A DNA stretch of 64,000 nt from Escherichia coli (GTDB lineage: Bacteria > Pseudomonadota > Gammaproteobacteria > Enterobacterales > Enterobacteriaceae). The notes beneath the pieces were generated by a model. The model made no database searches. It was given only the letters and a program-made list of their open reading frames with translations, and was not told the origin of the DNA. Where the stretch lies: assembly GCF_003334305.1 (NCBI RefSeq), contig NZ_QOWS01000007.1; one strand, 5' to 3'. Position 1 is the stretch's first letter, and each line of letters opens with the position of its first letter. The position numbers and the translations under genes are program-made. This document shows positions 1 to 56,244 of this stretch, in pieces.

Positions 1-14
1 GCATTCAGTTTCAT
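1..14 (-). CDS. pdeF: c-di-GMP phosphodiesterase PdeF (YfgF), first codons only; gene runs off the left edge
   Basis: Reverse complement of nt 1-14 reads ATG AAA CTG AAT GC (M K L N A), matching the recalled PdeF N-terminus; only 14 nt visible. Confidence 0.3.
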
Positions 15-365
15 AGATGCTCAGCAGAATCCCCCACATCCTGAAGGAGGTGTATTCAGACAGGCATCCCACCTGACTTCGAATGATGATTATTCATCAC
101 TATAGAGAGCATTGATTCTAAGTGTCATATGAAAGTTCCAATTGATATATATCAAACAAAATAACCCTGATTAATGAATTATTACGTTTATCATGTTAAT
201 TCATCATTATTACATCATCATTGTAAATAATTAAATTAACTTCCATAACATTAAAATATGTATCCACTGACGCTTTTTTACATAACGAAGAATTGACCAT
301 TTTGTCCTGTTGTGCCTTAATGTAAGTACCGTCCACAGCGTGGGACATACTTCAAGGAACCTTTT

Positions 366-557
366 GTGAGTCAGGCAACCAGTATGCGAAAACGACACCG
401 ATTTAACAGTCGCATGACCCGTATCGTACTGCTCATCAGCTTTATCTTCTTCTTTGGCCGTTTTATCTACTCGTCCGTCGGTGCCTGGCAGCACCATCAG
501 AGCAAAAAAGAAGCTCAGCAATCCACACTCTCCGTCGAATCACCGGTACAACGTTAG
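366..557 (+). CDS. yfgG: small membrane protein YfgG (63 aa)
   Basis: 63-aa ORF with hydrophobic segment IVLLISFIFFFGRFIY; position between pdeF and yfgH matches K-12 order. Confidence 0.8.
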   Translation: MSQATSMRKRHRFNSRMTRIVLLISFIFFFGRFIYSSVGAWQHHQSKKEAQQSTLSVESPVQR

Positions 558-867
558 CGGTTACCTTCTCCACTTTCACAGAACCTAACGGCACTTCGCT
601 GTCGGATGCTTTTGCTCTTTGGAATTATCAAAGCGGCAGATATTCTTTCATCTTAAATTTTACGTCTTTGTCCTGACTGAGGTTTATCCTGTTTGGCTGC
701 GAAATAAATATAAAATTAATATATATGTTGTAATGATATATTTTTATAAATTATTCCCTGCGTGAATTTTAATAAATTTAATCTATCCCTTTATACGCAA
801 TACATTTACTTTCCTCTTTTGATGATCTTAAATGTCTTATTTTTCGTAATGTGTATAACAAGGAATA

Positions 868-1386
868 GTGATGAAATTTAAAAAATGTCTTCTGCCTGTG
901 GCAATGTTAGCGTCATTCACTCTGGCAGGATGCCAGTCAAATGCTGACGATCATGCCGCCGATGTTTATCAAACCGATCAACTGAATACCAAACAAGAAA
1001 CTAAAACCGTTAATATTATTTCCATTCTTCCCGCAAAAGTTGCCGTAGACAACTCCCAAAATAAACGGAACGCACAAGCCTTCGGCGCGCTTATTGGCGC
1101 AGTCGCTGGCGGTGTTATCGGCCACAACGTCGGTTCTGGCAGCAATTCCGGAACGACGGCAGGGGCAGTTGGCGGCGGAGCTGTAGGCGCGGCAGTGGGT
1201 TCTATGGTGAATGATAAAACCTTAGTGGAAGGTGTTTCTTTAACATATAAGGAAGGCACCAAAGTGTATACCTCTACCCAGGTGGGTAAAGAGTGCCAGT
1301 TTACGACAGGTTTAGCCGTTGTTATTACCACAACGTATAACGAAACGCGTATTCAGCCAAATACTAAATGTCCTGAAAAGAGCTAA
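868..1386 (+). CDS. yfgH: glycine-zipper outer-membrane lipoprotein YfgH (172 aa)
   Basis: Lipobox LAGC after signal peptide; Gly/Ala-rich zipper GALIGAVAGGVIGHNVGSG...GAVGGGAVGAAVG. Confidence 0.85.
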   Translation: MMKFKKCLLPVAMLASFTLAGCQSNADDHAADVYQTDQLNTKQETKTVNIISILPAKVAVDNSQNKRNAQAFGALIGAVAGGVIGHNVGSGSNSGTTAGAVGGGAVGAAVGSMVNDKTLVEGVSLTYKEGTKVYTSTQVGKECQFTTGLAVVITTTYNETRIQPNTKCPEKS

Positions 1387-1401
1387 TAATCAGGAGGAGT
1401 C

Positions 1402-1941
1402 ATGAAGAAAGTTTTTCTTTGCGCCATCTTGGCCTCCTTAAGCTATCCGGCTATCGCCTCATCATTGCAGGATCAACTCTCTGCTGTAGCAGAAGCTGAA
1501 CAGCAAGGTAAAAATGAAGAGCAAAGGCAGCATGACGAATGGGTCGCGGAGCGCAACAGGGAAATCCAGCAAGAGAAGCAACGTCGCGCAAATGCCCAGG
1601 CCGCCGCTAACAAAAGAGCGGCAACGGCAGCGGCAAATAAGAAAGCTCGTCAGGATAAACTGGACGCCGAAGCCTCTGCGGACAAAAAACGCGATCAAAG
1701 TTATGAAGATGAGCTACGCAGCTTAGAGATTCAGAAACAAAAACTGGCGCTGGCAAAAGAAGAAGCCCGCGTTAAGCGAGAAAACGAATTTATCGATCAG
1801 GAACTGAAGCACAAAGCTGCGCAAACCGATGTGGTGCAATCTGAAGCTGACGCCAACAGAAATATGACTGAAGGCGGTCGCGATCTGATGAAAAGCGTGG
1901 GCAAAGCAGAAGAGAACAAATCGGACAGCTGGTTTAATTAA
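1402..1941 (+). CDS. yfgI: YfgI, secreted charged coiled-coil-like protein (179 aa)
   Basis: Signal peptide MKKVFLCAILASLSYPAIA; Ala/Lys/Glu-rich low-complexity body; 16-nt gap after yfgH with SD-like AGGAGGAG. Confidence 0.85.
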   Translation: MKKVFLCAILASLSYPAIASSLQDQLSAVAEAEQQGKNEEQRQHDEWVAERNREIQQEKQRRANAQAAANKRAATAAANKKARQDKLDAEASADKKRDQSYEDELRSLEIQKQKLALAKEEARVKRENEFIDQELKHKAAQTDVVQSEADANRNMTEGGRDLMKSVGKAEENKSDSWFN

Positions 1942-2013: not shown

Positions 2014-2035
2014 ATTCATAGTGCAGGGATTAAAA

Positions 2036-3613
2036 TCATTCCCACTCAATGGTAGCTGGCGGCTTGCCGCTGATGTCATACACCACGCGGGAAATACCGT
2101 TCACTTCATTGATAATGCGGTTGGAAACGCGACCGAGGAAATCGTACGGCAGATGCGCCCAGTGTGCGGTCATAAAGTCGATGGTTTCGACAGCACGCAG
2201 AGAGACAACCCAGTCATACTTACGACCATCGCCCATTACGCCAACGGAACGTACCGGCAGGAACACAGTGAACGCCTGGCTGACTTTGTCGTACAGGTCC
2301 GCTTTACGCAGTTCTTCAATGAAGATGGCGTCAGCACGGCGCAGCAGGTCACAGTACTCTTTCTTCACTTCACCCAGCACACGAACGCCAAGGCCTGGTC
2401 CCGGGAACGGGTGACGGTACAGCATGTCGTACGGCAGGCCCAGCTCCAGACCAATCTTACGCACTTCGTCTTTGAACAGCTCTTTCAGCGGTTCAACCAG
2501 GCCCATCTTCATCTCTTTCGGCAGGCCGCCCACGTTGTGGTGAGATTTGATGACGTGTGCTTTACCGGTTGCAGAAGCCGCAGATTCGATAACGTCAGGG
2601 TAGATGGTGCCCTGCGCCAGCCACTTCACGTCTTCCAGTTTCAGCGCTTCTTCATCGAATACTTCAACGAAAACGCGCCCGATGATTTTACGTTTTGCTT
2701 CCGGATCGTTTTCGCCAGCCAGCGCTGACAGGAAGCGATCTTCTGCCGGTACGTGAACAATGTTAAGACCAAAGTGATCGCCAAACATATCCAGAACCTG
2801 CTCTGCTTCGTTGAGACGCAGCAGGCCGTTGTCGACGAATACGCAAGTCAGGTTTTTACCGATAGCGCGGTGCAGCAGCATTGCGGTTACGGAGGAATCC
2901 ACACCACCAGAGAGGCCGAGGATGACTTTATCGTCGCCTACCTGCTCGCGGATGCGAGCTACAGCATCGTCGATAATTTTCGCTGGCGTCCACAGGGCTT
3001 CACACTGGCAGATATCACGCACAAAACGCTCCAGCATGCGCATACCCTGGCGGGTGTGAGTCACTTCCGGGTGGAACTGTACGCCATAGAAGCGTTTTTC
3101 TTCGTTAGCCATAATGGCAAACGGGCAGCTTTCGGTGCTGGCTACGGTGACGAAGTCGGACGGGATAGCGGTAACTTTATCGCCGTGGCTCATCCAGACA
3201 TCGAGCAGCGGTTTACCGTCTGCGGTCAGCGCATCTTCGATACCGCGAACCAGTGCGCTGTCGTTTACGACTTCAACCTGCGCGTAGCCAAATTCACGTT
3301 CGTTAGAGGCTTCAACGTGACCGCCCAACTGCATTGCCATGGTCTGCATGCCATAGCAAACGCCGAATACCGGTACGCCTGCTTCAAAGACATACTGCGG
3401 CGCACGCGGGCTGTTTTCTTCGGTGGTGCTTTCCGGGCCGCCGGAAAGAATAATGCCGCTTGGATTGAAGTCACGAATTTGTGCTTCTGTCACATCCCAC
3501 GCCCACAGTTCGCAGTAAACACCCAGCTCACGCACGCGGCGCGCAACCAGTTGAGTGTACTGAGAACCGAAGTCCAGAATGAGGATGCGATGCTTATGAA
3601 TGTTTTCCGTCAT
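2036..3613 (-). CDS. guaA: GMP synthase (glutamine-hydrolysing), 525 aa
   Basis: Full-length ORF; N-terminus [22 protein letters not shown]; ends ...PPATIEWE. Confidence 0.97.
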
Positions 3614-3681
3614 TGACGCTTATTCCGAGGCAAGTGAAACAGATAATATAAATCGCCCGACATGAAGTCGGGCGAAGAGAA

Positions 3682-5148
3682 TCAGGAGCCCAGACGGTAG
3701 TTCGGGGACTCTTTAGTAATGGTCACGTCGTGAACGTGGCTTTCCTGAATGCCCGCACCGCTGATACGTACAAACTCCGCTTTAGTACGCAGTTCGTCGA
3801 TAGTACCACAGCCGGTCAGACCCATACAGGAGCGCAGGCCGCCCATCTGCTGGTGAATGATCTCTTTCAGGCGACCTTTATAAGCTACGCGACCTTCGAT
3901 ACCTTCCGGCACCAGTTTGTCGGCAGCGTTATCGCTCTGGAAATAACGGTCAGAGGAACCTTTGGACATCGCGCCCAGGGAACCCATACCACGGTAAGAT
4001 TTGTAAGAACGGCCCTGGTAGAGTTCGATTTCACCCGGAGATTCTTCAGTACCCGCCAGCATGGAACCTACCATCACCGCGCTTGCGCCAGCGGCGATAG
4101 CTTTGGCGATGTCGCCGGAGAAGCGAATACCACCATCTGCGATAACCGGAATACCGGTGCCTTCCAGGGCTTCAACTGCGTCAGCAACGGCAGTGATCTG
4201 CGGAACACCTACGCCAGTAACGATACGAGTCGTACAGATAGAACCAGGGCCGATACCGACTTTAACCGCGCTGCAACCAGCTTCTGCCAAAGCGCGTGCA
4301 CCTGCAGCTGTTGCCACGTTGCCGCCGATGATTTGCAGATCCGGATATTTAGCACGGGTTTCACGGATACGCTGCAAAACGCCTTCTGAGTGACCGTGGG
4401 AGGAGTCGATCAGCAGAACGTCAACGCCAGCGGCAACCAGCGCGTCAACACGCTCTTCGTTACCCGCACCTGCGCCAACTGCAGCACCAACACGCAGACG
4501 GCCTTGCTCGTCTTTACAGGCGTTCGGTTTACGTTCCGCTTTCTGGAAGTCTTTCACGGTGATCATGCCGATCAGGTGGAATTCGTCATCAACCACCAGC
4601 GCTTTTTCAACGCGTTTTTCGTGCATTTTTGCCAGCACCACTTCACGGGCTTCACCTTCACGCACGGTGACCAGACGCTCTTTCGGCGTCATGTAAACGC
4701 TAACCGGCTGGTTCAGGTCGGTAACAAAACGCACGTCACGACCGGTGATAATACCCACCAGTTCGTTTTCTTCGGTAACGACCGGATAGCCCGCAAAACC
4801 GTTACGCTCAGTCAGTTCTTTCACTTCGCGCAGCGTCGTGGTTGGCAGAACAGTCTGCGGATCAGTCACCACACCAGATTCGTGTTTTTTCACACGGCGA
4901 ACTTCTTCTGCCTGGCGTTCAATGGACATGTTTTTGTGGATAAAGCCGATACCGCCTTCCTGAGCCAGAGCAATAGCCAGGCGCGCTTCCGTTACGGTAT
5001 CCATTGCTGCGGAAAGCATAGGGATATTCAGACGAATAGTTTTCGTCAGCTGGGTGCTGAGGTCAGCAGTATTCGGCAGAACGGTAGAATGAGCAGGAAC
5101 GAGGAGAACGTCGTCAAACGTCAGAGCTTCTTTAGCGATACGTAGCAT
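3682..5148 (-). CDS. guaB: IMP dehydrogenase, 488 aa
   Basis: ORF-track entry is 511 aa; true start taken at internal ATG giving [18 protein letters not shown] (cat at 5146-5148 on plus strand). Confidence 0.95.
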
Positions 5149-56221: not shown

Positions 56222-56244
56222 AAGATGCATTTGAGATACATCAA
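56222..56244 (+). promoter_or_regulatory. candidate NsrR operator overlapping the hmp promoter
   Basis: Imperfect palindrome aagatgcatttgagatacatcaa about 27 nt upstream of hmp ATG; SD aaggaag at 56259-56265. Confidence 0.5.

What the first reader, a model, noticed from the sequence alone, without database searches (positions are those of the whole stretch)
15..365. Strongly AT-rich 350-bp regulatory spacer between pdeF and yfgG
The pdeF-yfgG divergent spacer is much more AT-rich than the surrounding DNA, with phased A/T tracts (attattacatcatcattgtaaataattaaattaacttcc...). This is typical of curved promoter DNA bound by nucleoid proteins (H-NS, Fis, IHF). From memory pdeF is anaerobically induced, so FNR or other sites may be here, but I cannot place them by eye.
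Basis: partly seen in the sequence, partly recalled or inferred. Interest (0 to 1): 0.2.

Follow-up and report, generated by a model that had tools for sequence, protein, structure and literature searches.

The report
Known FNR/H-NS promoter region of pdeF
This AT-rich stretch is the already characterised control region shared by two back-to-back E. coli genes: it holds a perfect binding site for the oxygen sensor FNR and lies under the silencing protein H-NS, so it is ordinary, although the pdeF leader beside it carries a conserved RNA structure that I could not find described anywhere.

Summary
The window is E. coli chromosome. Bases 15-365 are exactly the 351-bp pdeF(yfgF)<>yfgG divergent spacer. 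AT-richness is real: 34% GC against 53% for the window, and 23% in a 137-bp core. The "phased A/T tracts" are not: 10-11 bp periodicity equals shuffles, and a wedge model predicts no unusual curvature.

The one perfect FNR box in 64 kb, TTGATATATATCAA, sits at 142-155, 31 bp from a TAGAAT -10. This is the published class II FNR promoter of yfgF (Lacey 2010, as cited). Myers et al. 2013 report an FNR ChIP peak here, an extended H-NS ChIP-chip region covering the whole spacer, higher FNR occupancy without H-NS/StpA, and oxygen-dependent yfgF expression only in that mutant. No IHF peak lies in the spacer, and there is no Fis or IHF consensus. The yfgG promoter (TTGACC-17-TGcCTTAAT, start about 329) is sigma70- and sigmaS-bound.

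Verdict: already known and low interest.

Side result: in 15 orthologous spacers, from E. coli and about ten other enterobacterial genera, the most conserved part is the 93-nt pdeF leader. It has two GGA-loop hairpins, an invariant MPV mini-ORF, and a block complementary to the start-codon region. It has no Rfam match and I found no literature on it. This may be an undescribed translational control, possibly through CsrA.

The parts
1..14 (-). First 14 bases of the pdeF (yfgF, b2503) coding sequence; ATG at 14..12
   Evidence: Reverse complement is ATGAAACTGAATGC. Annotated pdeF in strain H15 and MG1655.
15..107 (-). pdeF 5' leader, about 93 nt, from the inferred start at about 107 to the ATG. 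GC is 46%, so this part is not AT-rich
   Evidence: The start is inferred from the FNR box centre (148.5) minus 41.5 and from the TAGAAT -10. The published description is class II, -41.5. Leader length is 93-99 nt in 14 of 15 orthologs. GC.
12..22 (-). Conserved translation-initiation block on the RNA, G(A/G)GCAUCUAUG
   Evidence: CATAGATGC at window 12-20 is invariant in the 9-genus alignment. The RNA core GCAUCUAUG was found in all 15 leaders.
31..50 (-). Leader hairpin HP2: CCUCC / GGGGG stem with loop UUCAGGAUGU, which contains CAGGAUG
   Evidence: A GGA-in-loop hairpin is found in the orthologs with different stems (AAACCCU/AGGGUUU, AUACCC/GGGUAU, AACCUUC/GAAGGUU and others). Mean stem is 6.0 bp against 3.43 in shuffles. 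Three pairs show changes on both sides; 74-75% of cells are paired against 23-49% when slid.
56..78 (-). Most conserved block of the spacer. On the RNA it reads GUCAGGU(G/U)GGAUGCCUGUCUGA. It forms a local hairpin CAGGU/GCCUG with loop (G/U)GGAU. It contains the mini-ORF AUG CCU GUC UGA (67..56). GGAUGC is complementary to GCAUCU next to the pdeF AUG
   Evidence: The core is invariant in 9 genera and in 15 leaders. RNAalifold predicts the hairpin. MPV* is kept in 12 of 15, and the ORF is in frame and open to the pdeF AUG in 2. The long-range pairing has probability >=0.6 in 10 of 15 leaders.
83..100 (-). 5'-proximal leader hairpin HP0 (GUGAUGA AUAA UCAUCAU)
   Evidence: Present in the E. coli fold. 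Other genera have a hairpin at the same place with unrelated stems, for example CCGCG/CGCGG. Not tested statistically.
115..120 (-). pdeF -10 hexamer TAGAAT
   Evidence: Seen in the sequence. Named as the -10 of the E. coli yfgF promoter in PMC3718329. TA(G/A/C)AAT is kept in all 15 orthologs at the same distance from the FNR box.
99..128 (-). Alternative sigma70 promoter-like match ATGACA-18-TATAGT, the 'constitutive promoter' predicted by Shimada 2014. Probably not the main promoter
   Evidence: Its -10 is not conserved outside Escherichia in alignment A2.
142..155 (.). FNR box TTGATATATATCAA, a perfect palindromic consensus centred at 148.5
   Evidence: It is the only perfect match in 64 kb. 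Expected number is 0.0013 in the spacer and 0.043 in the window. Myers 2013 Table S6 lists this sequence at 2627088 with PatSer score 16.08 and under a ChIP-seq peak. TTGA(T/C)N4(A/G)TCAA is kept in all 15 orthologs.
156..292 (.). AT-rich core between the two promoters: 137 bp, 23% GC, likely the main H-NS substrate. It contains conserved blocks at 170-192, 222-230, 242-251 and 267-283 with no assigned factor
   Evidence: Length is 133-137 bp (137 in 9 of 15) and GC is 19-35% in all 15 orthologs, although the sequence of 156-221 is not conserved beyond Escherichia and Citrobacter. It lies inside the published H-NS ChIP-chip regions.
293..321 (+). yfgG promoter: -35 TTGACC (293-298), 17-bp spacer, extended -10 TGc CTTAAT (313-321)
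   Evidence: Predicted by Shimada 2014. AATTGACC and T.TG.CTTAAT are invariant in 9 genera.
329..365 (+). yfgG 5' UTR, from the published start (2627275 in U00096.2, which is window 329) to the GTG; AAGGAA Shine-Dalgarno at 352-357
   Evidence: TSS and sigmaS ChIP-seq region are from Peano 2015. The sigma70 ChIP-seq peak at 2627279 is window 333. The coordinate offset of 2626946 was fixed by the FNR site position in Table S6.
366..557 (+). yfgG coding sequence (63 aa, DUF2633; 'Ni/Co stress response protein')
196..348 (-). 50-aa ORF that PGAP annotates as a 'hypothetical protein' (WP_000017552.1). Judged spurious
   Evidence: Annotated in strain H15 but not in MG1655. Its length changes within Escherichia (50, 46, 64 aa), and no equivalent ORF exists in other genera.

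Best explanation
Bases 15-365 are the known bidirectional control region of pdeF (yfgF) and yfgG.

Leftward transcription: an FNR dimer on the perfect box at 142-155 sits at -41.5 and recruits RNA polymerase to the TAGAAT -10 at 120..115. This is a class II activator mechanism. It makes a transcript with a 93-nt leader when oxygen is absent.

Rightward transcription: a good sigma70/sigmaS promoter (TTGACC-17-TGcCTTAAT) starts yfgG at about 329.

The two promoters are separated by a 137-bp core at about 23% GC. This core belongs to a 2-4.5 kb H-NS-bound region. H-NS (with StpA) lowers FNR occupancy and damps anaerobic induction of pdeF. The AT-richness therefore works as an H-NS substrate and as easily melted promoter DNA, not as a phased-A-tract bend.

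Shown in published experiments: FNR binding, H-NS binding, the effect of hns/stpA deletion, and sigma70/sigmaS occupancy. Shown here: composition, uniqueness of the site, spacing, and conservation. Inferred: that the AT-rich core itself is what recruits H-NS, and that H-NS acts by occlusion.
For: Identity of the locus.

Composition.

FNR:
- The FNR box is unique in the window and perfect, with a chance expectation of 0.0013.
- The box-to-(-10) geometry is kept in all 15 orthologs.

Myers 2013 supplements:
- FNR ChIP peak at 2627146, called by three ChIP-seq algorithms and by ChIP-chip.
- H-NS regions 2626274-2628408 (anaerobic) and 2624400-2628963 (aerobic).
- FNR peak average rises from 0.35 to 1.68 in the hns stpA mutant (significant).
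- yfgF shows an O2-dependent change (0.23) only in that mutant.

Other:
- Genomic-SELEX H-NS mark and RpoD binding.
- SigmaS ChIP-seq and the yfgG TSS.
- AT-richness and the 133-137 bp length of the core are conserved across the 15 orthologs although its sequence is not.
Against: - Myers 2013 Table S6 lists 'None' for H-NS/IHF/Fis overlap at this FNR site. This conflicts with their own Table S3 interval.
- In glucose minimal medium they saw no FNR-dependent change in yfgF expression in the wild type (Table S9), so FNR activation depends on conditions.
- No Lang-type high-affinity H-NS motif is present within 2 mismatches, and no curvature is predicted, so where H-NS nucleates is unknown.
- Lacey 2010 itself could not be read. 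Its content is taken from citing papers.
- The pdeF start site is inferred here, not seen.
Confidence: 0.85

Rival explanations
1. The AT-rich spacer is intrinsically curved DNA, with A/T tracts phased with the helix. It acts architecturally and is recognised by IHF and Fis as well as H-NS.
For: Some A/T-tract centres are about two helical turns apart (18.5, 18.5, 21, 20, 21.5 bp). A local wedge-model peak of 16.9 degrees per turn at about 271, at the T6 tract, is near the window's 99th percentile. H-NS is known to prefer curved AT-rich DNA (Shimada 2014 text).
Against: AA/TT periodicity does not exceed shuffles (P=0.32 and 0.52). The 120-bp end-to-end/contour ratios are ordinary, at the 13th-87th percentile, while the same method flags the neighbouring yfgG-yfgH spacer in the top 1%. 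There is no IHF or Fis consensus and no IHF ChIP-chip region in the spacer. The wedge parameters were recalled from memory, and the model is only a prediction.
Confidence: 0.1
2. The low GC has no function of its own. It is the usual composition of enterobacterial promoter DNA plus mutational bias, and H-NS binding is an incidental consequence with little regulatory weight.
For: Other crude intergenic gaps in the window are also below the coding GC, at 0.34-0.58. The sequence of 156-221 is not conserved outside Escherichia and Citrobacter. The yfgG promoter is strongly sigma70-occupied despite H-NS.
Against: The core stays at 19-35% GC and 133-137 bp long in all 15 orthologs, whose pdeF coding GC ranges from 0.43 to 0.55. 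Indels would be expected in neutral AT-rich DNA. Deleting hns and stpA raises FNR occupancy about 2.5-fold in log2 peak average and uncovers O2-dependent yfgF expression.
Confidence: 0.15
3. The spacer encodes a small protein: the 50-aa ORF at 196..348 on the - strand that PGAP annotates. Its conservation would then reflect coding.
For: PGAP calls it in strain H15 and in many RefSeq E. coli genomes.
Against: It is not in the curated MG1655 annotation. Its start and length change within Escherichia (50, 46, 64 aa), and there is no equivalent ORF in the other genera. It overlaps the conserved yfgG -35 and -10 elements, which explains the local nucleotide conservation.
Confidence: 0.03
4. ArcA, BasR or other response regulators, rather than H-NS, are the main readers of the AT-rich core.
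For: There are four ArcA-like words (<=4 mismatches to GTTAATTAAATGTTA) against 0.56 in shuffles. BasR shifts a yfgF promoter fragment at 2-16 uM, and yfgF rises 2.3-fold in a basSR mutant of APEC. PgrR SELEX lists the spacer. Conserved unassigned blocks lie at 170-192, 222-251 and 267-283.
Against: yfgF and yfgG do not appear in the held ArcA ChIP and expression supplements of Park 2013. PmrA/BasR-box matches are not above shuffles. The EMSA used micromolar protein and no site was mapped.
Confidence: 0.15

Closest known systems
Class II FNR-activated promoters (FNR box TTGAT-N4-ATCAA centred at -41.5, e.g. yfiD/grcA)
   Same: Perfect FNR box. It lies 31 bp centre-to-centre from a TAnAAT -10, and there is no -35. 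FNR is bound in vivo. yfgF is itself a published example.
   Different: In wild-type cells in glucose minimal medium, FNR occupancy is low (peak average 0.35) and no FNR-dependent expression change was seen. yfiD is strongly regulated in the same data.
H-NS-masked FNR targets described by Myers et al. 2013 (e.g. hlyE, yaiV, feaR)
   Same: The site lies in an extended (>1 kb) H-NS ChIP-chip region. FNR signal rises in the hns stpA mutant. O2-dependent expression is seen only in that mutant.
   Different: Here FNR is still detectable in the wild type, so the site is damped rather than silent. Their Table S6 does not flag it as overlapping a nucleoid protein.
pnrf-type FNR promoters suppressed by IHF and Fis
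   Same: An FNR-dependent promoter whose output is held down by nucleoid-associated proteins (abstract of PMC5434802).
   Different: No IHF or Fis consensus and no IHF ChIP signal in this spacer. The protein involved here is H-NS.
CsrA-controlled mRNA leaders of c-di-GMP genes (dgcT/ycdT, dgcZ/ydeH) and CsrB-type CAGGAUG hairpin repeats (from my own knowledge, and Sarenko 2017 for dgcT)
   Same: The pdeF leader presents GGA in the loops of two hairpins about 28 nt apart. In E. coli one loop reads CAGGAUG. The gene belongs to the motility/biofilm c-di-GMP network.
   Different: No GGA overlaps the Shine-Dalgarno region. No CsrA binding data exist for pdeF: it is absent from the held CLIP-seq supplements, which came from aerobic cultures where pdeF is silent. 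The resemblance is a lead, not a test.
Upstream-ORF or anti-Shine-Dalgarno translational switches (e.g. uof-fur; CsrA activation of ymdA by opening a sequestering hairpin; from my own knowledge)
   Same: An invariant 3-codon ORF (MPV) with an AGGU(G/U)GG stretch directly upstream lies in a block complementary to the 6 nt before the pdeF AUG. Occupying that block would free the start site.
   Different: Both partners are invariant, so covariation cannot support the pairing. In E. coli K-12-like leaders the pairing is not the dominant predicted fold (P=0.10). Translation of the mini-ORF is untested.

Membership tests
Class II FNR-dependent promoter | FNR box matching TTGAT-N4-ATCAA | tested here: met
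   TTGATATATATCAA at 142-155, 10 of 10 specified bases. It is the only perfect match in 64 kb, with 0.0013 expected in the spacer.
Class II FNR-dependent promoter | Box centred near -41.5, overlapping the -35 position, with a -10 hexamer about 31-32 bp away | tested here: met
   The box centre is 148.5 and the TAGAAT centre is 117.5, 31 bp apart. The same geometry holds in all 15 orthologs. The published assignment is -41.5. The start site itself was not observed here.
Class II FNR-dependent promoter | FNR occupancy in vivo | not testable with these tools
   Published: ChIP-seq (three algorithms) and ChIP-chip peak at 2627146, which is window 200 (Myers 2013 Table S5).
Class II FNR-dependent promoter | FNR-dependent anaerobic induction | not testable with these tools
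   Published as FNR-activated and maximal anaerobically (Lacey 2010, as cited). Not seen in wild type versus fnr mutant in glucose minimal medium (Table S9). Seen as an O2 effect only in the hns stpA mutant (Table S11).
H-NS-bound / silenced AT-rich region | AT content well above the genome average over >100 bp | tested here: met
   GC is 0.342 for the spacer and 0.234 for the core, against 0.527 for the window.
H-NS-bound / silenced AT-rich region | H-NS occupancy by ChIP or SELEX | not testable with these tools
   Published: ChIP-chip regions of 2134 bp (anaerobic) and 4563 bp (aerobic) span the spacer. Genomic SELEX carries the H-NS mark. Table S6 of the same ChIP paper says 'None' at the FNR site, which is unresolved.
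H-NS-bound / silenced AT-rich region | Change of expression or factor access when hns is removed | not testable with these tools
   Published: FNR peak average rises from 0.35 to 1.68, and O2-dependent yfgF expression appears only in the hns stpA mutant.
H-NS-bound / silenced AT-rich region | High-affinity nucleation motif TCGATAAATT (Lang 2007, recalled from memory) | tested here: not met
   No match with <=2 mismatches in 15-365.
Intrinsically curved promoter DNA | A/T tracts phased at about 10.5 bp and predicted or measured curvature | tested here: not met
   Periodicity equals shuffles. Wedge-model end-to-end/contour ratio is at the 13th-87th percentile. Gel anomaly was not testable.
IHF / Fis / CRP target | Match to WATCAANNNNTTR, GNNYAWWWWWTRNNC or TGTGA-N6-TCACA | tested here: not met
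   No IHF or Fis match with <=1 mismatch. CRP-like matches (<=3 mismatches) are not above shuffles. The nearest IHF ChIP-chip region is inside pdeF.
CsrA-regulated mRNA leader | Two or more GGA motifs, at least one in a hairpin loop | tested here: met
   GGA sits in the loop of HP1 (an invariant block) and in the loop of HP2 in the orthologs. HP2 stems differ between genera.
CsrA-regulated mRNA leader | A GGA site overlapping the Shine-Dalgarno sequence or start codon (for the usual repression mode) | tested here: not met
   The nearest GGA (GGGGGA, 35..30) ends 15 nt before the AUG. The region just 5' of the AUG is GAGCAUCU.
CsrA-regulated mRNA leader | Direct CsrA binding or csrA-dependent expression | tested here: inconclusive
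   yfgF, pdeF and b2503 do not appear in the held supplements of the E. coli CsrA CLIP-seq study. No supplements are held for the Salmonella study. No paper links the two. pdeF is not expressed aerobically, so absence is uninformative.
Any described RNA family (Rfam 15) | Covariance-model match | tested here: not met
   No relevant match at E<=1 in window 1-1000 on either strand. The one listed match is a chance lncRNA hit at 807-893.

The most novel reading that the evidence does not exclude
The 93-nt pdeF leader (window 107..15, - strand) is an undescribed, genus-spanning cis-regulatory RNA. It has a 5' hairpin and an invariant block GUCAGGU(G/U)GGAUGCCUGUCUGA. That block can fold locally, presenting GGA in a loop, or pair with GCAUCU directly 5' of the pdeF AUG. 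It also encodes a 3-codon ORF (MPV). A second hairpin has covarying stems and GGA in its loop.

On this reading, pdeF translation is gated by whatever occupies the block: CsrA, or a ribosome on the mini-ORF. That would add a post-transcriptional layer to the FNR/H-NS control and link the Csr system to an anaerobic c-di-GMP phosphodiesterase.
Probability: 0.4. Interest if true: 0.45.

Novelty: already known. Interest (0 to 1): 0.2.

Why it matters
As a finding about an AT-rich regulatory spacer it changes nothing. The FNR site, the promoter class, H-NS occupancy and H-NS damping of FNR are all in print. Its use here is as a clean worked example showing that AT-richness alone does not imply phased tracts or curvature.

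The side observation could matter modestly. PdeF is the anaerobic c-di-GMP phosphodiesterase, and it is undetectable in standard cultures. If its leader is a CsrA- or uORF-gated translational switch, that would explain the extra silence beyond transcription. It would also connect carbon-storage (Csr) signalling to c-di-GMP turnover under anoxia, and this can be tested with a few reporter constructs.

Tried and rejected
1. Curvature and phasing: a wedge-model path and AA/TT Fourier power gave no signal in this spacer. The first, very local curvature measure was noisy, so I replaced it with the 120-bp end-to-end ratio, validated on synthetic controls.

2. Consensus scans for IHF, Fis, the H-NS (Lang) motif, Fur, NikR and Lrp gave no hits. 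CRP and OxyR hits were not above shuffles. NarL/P 7-2-7 hits were marginally above (14 against 6.5; P=0.04), all with 4 of 12 specified bases mismatched, and were not pursued.

3. ArcA-like words were enriched against shuffles. They were rejected because yfgF and yfgG are absent from the held ArcA ChIP and expression supplements.

4. PmrA/BasR box: not above shuffles, despite a published EMSA.

5. The 50-aa PGAP ORF is not conserved.

6. Rfam gave no match. The whole-leader folding energy is unremarkable (z=-0.65). The signal lies in conservation and covariation, not in stability.

7. A conserved longer uORF was rejected: the E. coli MNNHHSKSGGMPV frame is not kept in other genera.

8. A sigma54 promoter or a DNA operator reading of the conserved block was considered by eye. 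I judged it less likely than an RNA reading because the centre of the block is as invariant as its arms. This was not formally tested.

9. CsrA CLIP-seq look-ups were uninformative. Lacey 2010 and Jonas 2008 are not held.

10. The genome-contig scan with the PdeF N-terminus returned only Escherichia plus one Citrobacter. I obtained wider orthologs through YfgG homologs and their contigs.
Full report
**Where we are.** Bases 1-900 of the window match 5423 of 5426 complete E. coli genomes and are 100% identical to strain H15. The annotation there and in MG1655 places pdeF (formerly yfgF, b2503) on the - strand with its ATG at window 14. yfgG (b2504) is at 366-557 on the + strand, followed by yfgH, yfgI and guaA. 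The curated MG1655 record annotates nothing inside it.

**The observation.**
- AT-richness is real. GC is 0.342 over 15-365, 0.254 over 100-300 and 0.206 over 130-260. The window mean is 0.527, with sd 0.043 for 351-bp windows.
- Only 0.5% of such windows are as low, and they all fall in this spacer or in the next one (yfgG-yfgH).
- Crude non-coding gaps in the window range from 0.34 to 0.58 GC, so this spacer is at the low end even for intergenic DNA.
- The low GC is not uniform. The part that is transcribed as the pdeF leader (15-107) is 46% GC, and the AT-rich part is a 137-bp core at 23% GC plus its flanks.
- The second half of the observation, 'phased A/T tracts', fails. There are 12 short tracts, mostly AATT. 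AA/TT power at 10-11.25 bp is matched or exceeded by 32% of dinucleotide-preserving shuffles (52% for the core).
- A Bolshoy/Trifonov wedge model (parameters recalled from memory) gave the expected results on A6N4, out-of-phase and random controls. It puts 120-bp segments of the spacer at the 13th-87th percentile of the window for end-to-end/contour ratio.
- The same calculation puts the neighbouring yfgG-yfgH spacer (about 795-855) in the most curved 0.2-1%.

**The FNR site.**
TTGATATATATCAA at 142-155 is a perfect FNR consensus and the only perfect match in the 64 kb. From base composition, 0.0013 such matches are expected in the spacer and 0.043 in the window.
- Its centre (148.5) lies 31 bp from the centre of a TAGAAT hexamer on the - strand (120..115). 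That is the geometry of a class II promoter with a start near 107.
- This is already published. PMC3718329, citing Lacey et al. [quoted passage not shown]
- Myers et al. 2013 list this very sequence at 2627088 (U00096.2) with PatSer score 16.08, under an FNR ChIP-seq/ChIP-chip peak centred at 2627146. That entry fixes the conversion: window = U00096.2 coordinate - 2626946.

**Nucleoid proteins.**
- Table S3 of the same paper gives H-NS ChIP-chip regions 2626274-2628408 (anaerobic) and 2624400-2628963 (aerobic). These map to window -672..1462 and -2546..2017. An 'extended' H-NS region therefore covers the whole spacer and its neighbours.
- Shimada et al. 2014 mark the spacer as holding a Genomic-SELEX H-NS site as well as RpoD-holoenzyme binding.
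- H-NS matters functionally. FNR peak average rises from 0.35 in the wild type to 1.68 in an hns stpA mutant (significant, Table S7).
- yfgF has an O2-dependent expression change only in that mutant. The Table S11 value is 0.23, a ratio that reads aerobic/anaerobic because glpA, cit and yfiD are also below 1.
- In the wild type in glucose minimal medium no FNR-dependent change was seen (Table S9).
- The nearest IHF ChIP-chip region lies inside pdeF at window -713..-434, and there is none in the spacer.
- Consensus scans find no IHF, Fis or Lang-type H-NS motif.
- One inconsistency remains. Table S6 lists 'None' for nucleoid-protein overlap at this FNR site although Table S3 spans it.

**The rightward promoter.**
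- TTGACC (293-298), a 17-bp spacer and TGcCTTAAT (313-321) form an extended -10 promoter. Shimada 2014 predicted it.
- Peano et al. 2015 give a sigmaS ChIP-seq region that maps to window 154-453 and a yfgG start at 2627275, which is window 329.
- Myers et al. list a strong anaerobic sigma70 ChIP-seq peak at window 333. yfgG is about 2.2-fold higher anaerobically (Table S12).
- The FNR box is about 180 bp upstream of this start. That is too far for the usual FNR activation modes, so a direct FNR effect on yfgG is not indicated.

**Other reported binders.** PgrR SELEX lists the spacer. BasR shifts a yfgF promoter fragment in an EMSA at 2-16 uM, and yfgF rises 2.3-fold in a basSR mutant. I found no PmrA/BasR box above chance. 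ArcA-like words are enriched over shuffles, but the held ArcA ChIP and expression supplements do not list either gene.

**Comparative footprint.**
- I collected 15 orthologous spacers through a PdeF scan and through YfgG homologs and their contigs. They come from Escherichia, Citrobacter, Salmonella, Klebsiella aerogenes, Kluyvera, Atlantibacter, Leclercia, Enterobacter, [E.] lignolyticus, Pluralibacter and one unnamed lineage.
- The divergent pdeF<>yfgG pair is kept everywhere, while the genes beyond yfgG differ.
- Spacer length is 346-353 bp in 13 of 15. The exceptions are 412 bp in Salmonella, which has a 60-bp insertion after the yfgG -10, and 366 bp in Citrobacter sp. Cy234.
- The FNR box, the TAnAAT -10 at the class II distance, the yfgG AATTGACC -35 and the T.TG.CTTAAT -10 are invariant or nearly so.
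- The core between the FNR box and the yfgG -35 is 133-137 bp (137 in 9 of 15) and 19-35% GC in every ortholog. This holds although the sequence of 156-221 is unalignable beyond Escherichia and Citrobacter.
- So AT-richness and length, not sequence, are what is conserved there. That argues for a physical role such as an H-NS substrate, spacing, or ease of melting, rather than a series of specific sites.
- Shorter conserved blocks at 170-192, 222-230, 242-251 and 267-283 have no assigned factor.
- The alternative sigma70 match ATGACA-18-TATAGT is not conserved.
- The 50-aa ORF that PGAP annotates at 196..348 (-) varies in length within Escherichia and has no counterpart elsewhere. I regard it as spurious.

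The most conserved stretch of the whole spacer is not a promoter element. It is window 56-78, inside the pdeF leader.
- On the RNA it reads GUCAGGU(G/U)GGAUGCCUGUCUGA.
- It can form a local hairpin CAGGU/GCCUG with loop (G/U)GGAU (RNAalifold).
- It contains an AUG-CCU-GUC-UGA mini-ORF (MPV). This is kept in 12 of 15 orthologs and is MPVC in Salmonella. In Atlantibacter and Enterobacter asburiae it is open and in frame with the pdeF AUG 51 nt downstream.
- Its GGAUGC is complementary to GCAUCU, part of a second invariant block, G(A/G)GCAUCUAUG, at the pdeF start codon. In partition-function folds that long-range pairing has probability >=0.6 in 10 of 15 leaders, although only 0.10 in the E. coli window sequence.
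- Between the two blocks lies a second hairpin whose stems differ among genera: CCUCC/GGGGG, CCCUU/AAGGG, AAACCCU/AGGGUUU, AUACCC/GGGUAU, UACUCCG/UGGGGUA, AACCUUC/GAAGGUU. Its loop carries GGA in most of the 15 (CAGGAUG in E. coli); no loop-GGA hairpin was found in Citrobacter sp. Cy234.
- Its mean stem is 6.0 bp against 3.43 +/- 0.42 in shuffles (0 of 300; the sequences are related, so this is not a true P value).
- On MAFFT and model-fitted alignments, 85-86% of cells pair against 23-49% when partners are slid. Three pairs change on both sides. The covariation score is 0.131 against 0.097 (4 of 500 shuffles).
- A covariance model of the element finds it once per ortholog and nowhere else in the window.
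- Rfam has no match.
- Two GGA-loop hairpins about 28 nt apart are what CsrA recognises (my own knowledge of the CsrA SELEX consensus and the CsrB repeats). CsrA already controls c-di-GMP enzymes.
- I found no paper or dataset linking CsrA to pdeF. No GGA overlaps the Shine-Dalgarno region. PdeF is not expressed in the aerobic cultures used for CLIP-seq.
- This is therefore a hypothesis with structural support, not a finding.

**Verdict.** What is there is the published class II FNR promoter of pdeF and the yfgG promoter, under an extended H-NS region. It is already known and of low interest. The conserved pdeF leader is the only element here that might be new.

Noticed in passing
window 558-867 (yfgG-yfgH spacer): A second spacer, even more AT-rich (GC 0.28; it holds the lowest 351-bp window of the 64 kb). 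The wedge model predicts strong curvature around 795-855, in the top 0.2-1% of the window, unlike the pdeF-yfgG spacer. A FlhDC Genomic-SELEX peak is reported in it.
   Followed up: partly
window 196-348 (- strand): RefSeq/PGAP annotates a 50-aa 'hypothetical protein' (WP_000017552.1) inside the spacer in many E. coli genomes. It is absent from the curated MG1655 record and not conserved, so it is probably a spurious call overlapping the yfgG promoter.
   Followed up: yes
L021 (E. coli strain E5, NZ_CP104521.1) 3623-4793; corresponds to window 123 to about 880: An IS5-like ISKpn26 element replaces everything from just upstream of the pdeF -10 to the start of yfgH. This removes the FNR box, the AT-rich core and yfgG. 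About 50 of 5423 genomes lack a place covering at least 80% of the 900-bp query.
   Followed up: partly
window 56231-56244: TTGAGATACATCAA, one mismatch from the FNR consensus, lies about 40 bp upstream of hmpA in the glyA<>hmpA divergent spacer. From memory this is the known FNR operator of hmp. Myers 2013 names hmp among predicted FNR sites that lack a ChIP peak.
   Followed up: partly
Myers et al. 2013 Tables S3 and S6 (window 142-155): Table S6 says the yfgF/yfgG FNR site overlaps no H-NS/IHF/Fis enrichment. Table S3 of the same paper lists H-NS regions that span it under both growth conditions.
   Followed up: no
A2 columns 337-395; L010 (Salmonella), between the yfgG -10 and the yfgG start: Salmonella carries a roughly 60-bp insertion in the yfgG 5' UTR (spacer 412 bp instead of about 352). 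Every other element keeps its spacing.
   Followed up: no
L010-L020, downstream of yfgG: yfgH and yfgI were not seen next to yfgG in any of the fetched non-Escherichia loci. Elsewhere yfgG is followed by unrelated genes (LysR regulators, TrkH, fimbrial chaperone, MscS-like channel, TetR). Only the pdeF<>yfgG pair is the conserved unit.
   Followed up: no
L003 7-84 (Escherichia sp. MOD1-EC7003): The pdeF leader diverges completely from the consensus about 45 nt upstream of the ATG, and the contig ends there. This could be a rearrangement, a mobile-element junction or an assembly break.
   Followed up: no
window about 15915: The most curved 120-bp segment predicted in the whole window (end-to-end/contour 0.774) lies here. 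It is about 90 bp from a short low-GC intergenic gap at 16005-16089.
   Followed up: no
window 1-14 and L001 300-1500 (- strand; N-terminal part of the pdeF coding sequence): pdeF coding DNA is itself low in GC (0.45 against 0.53 for the window). This fits the aerobic H-NS ChIP-chip region that covers the whole gene.
   Followed up: no
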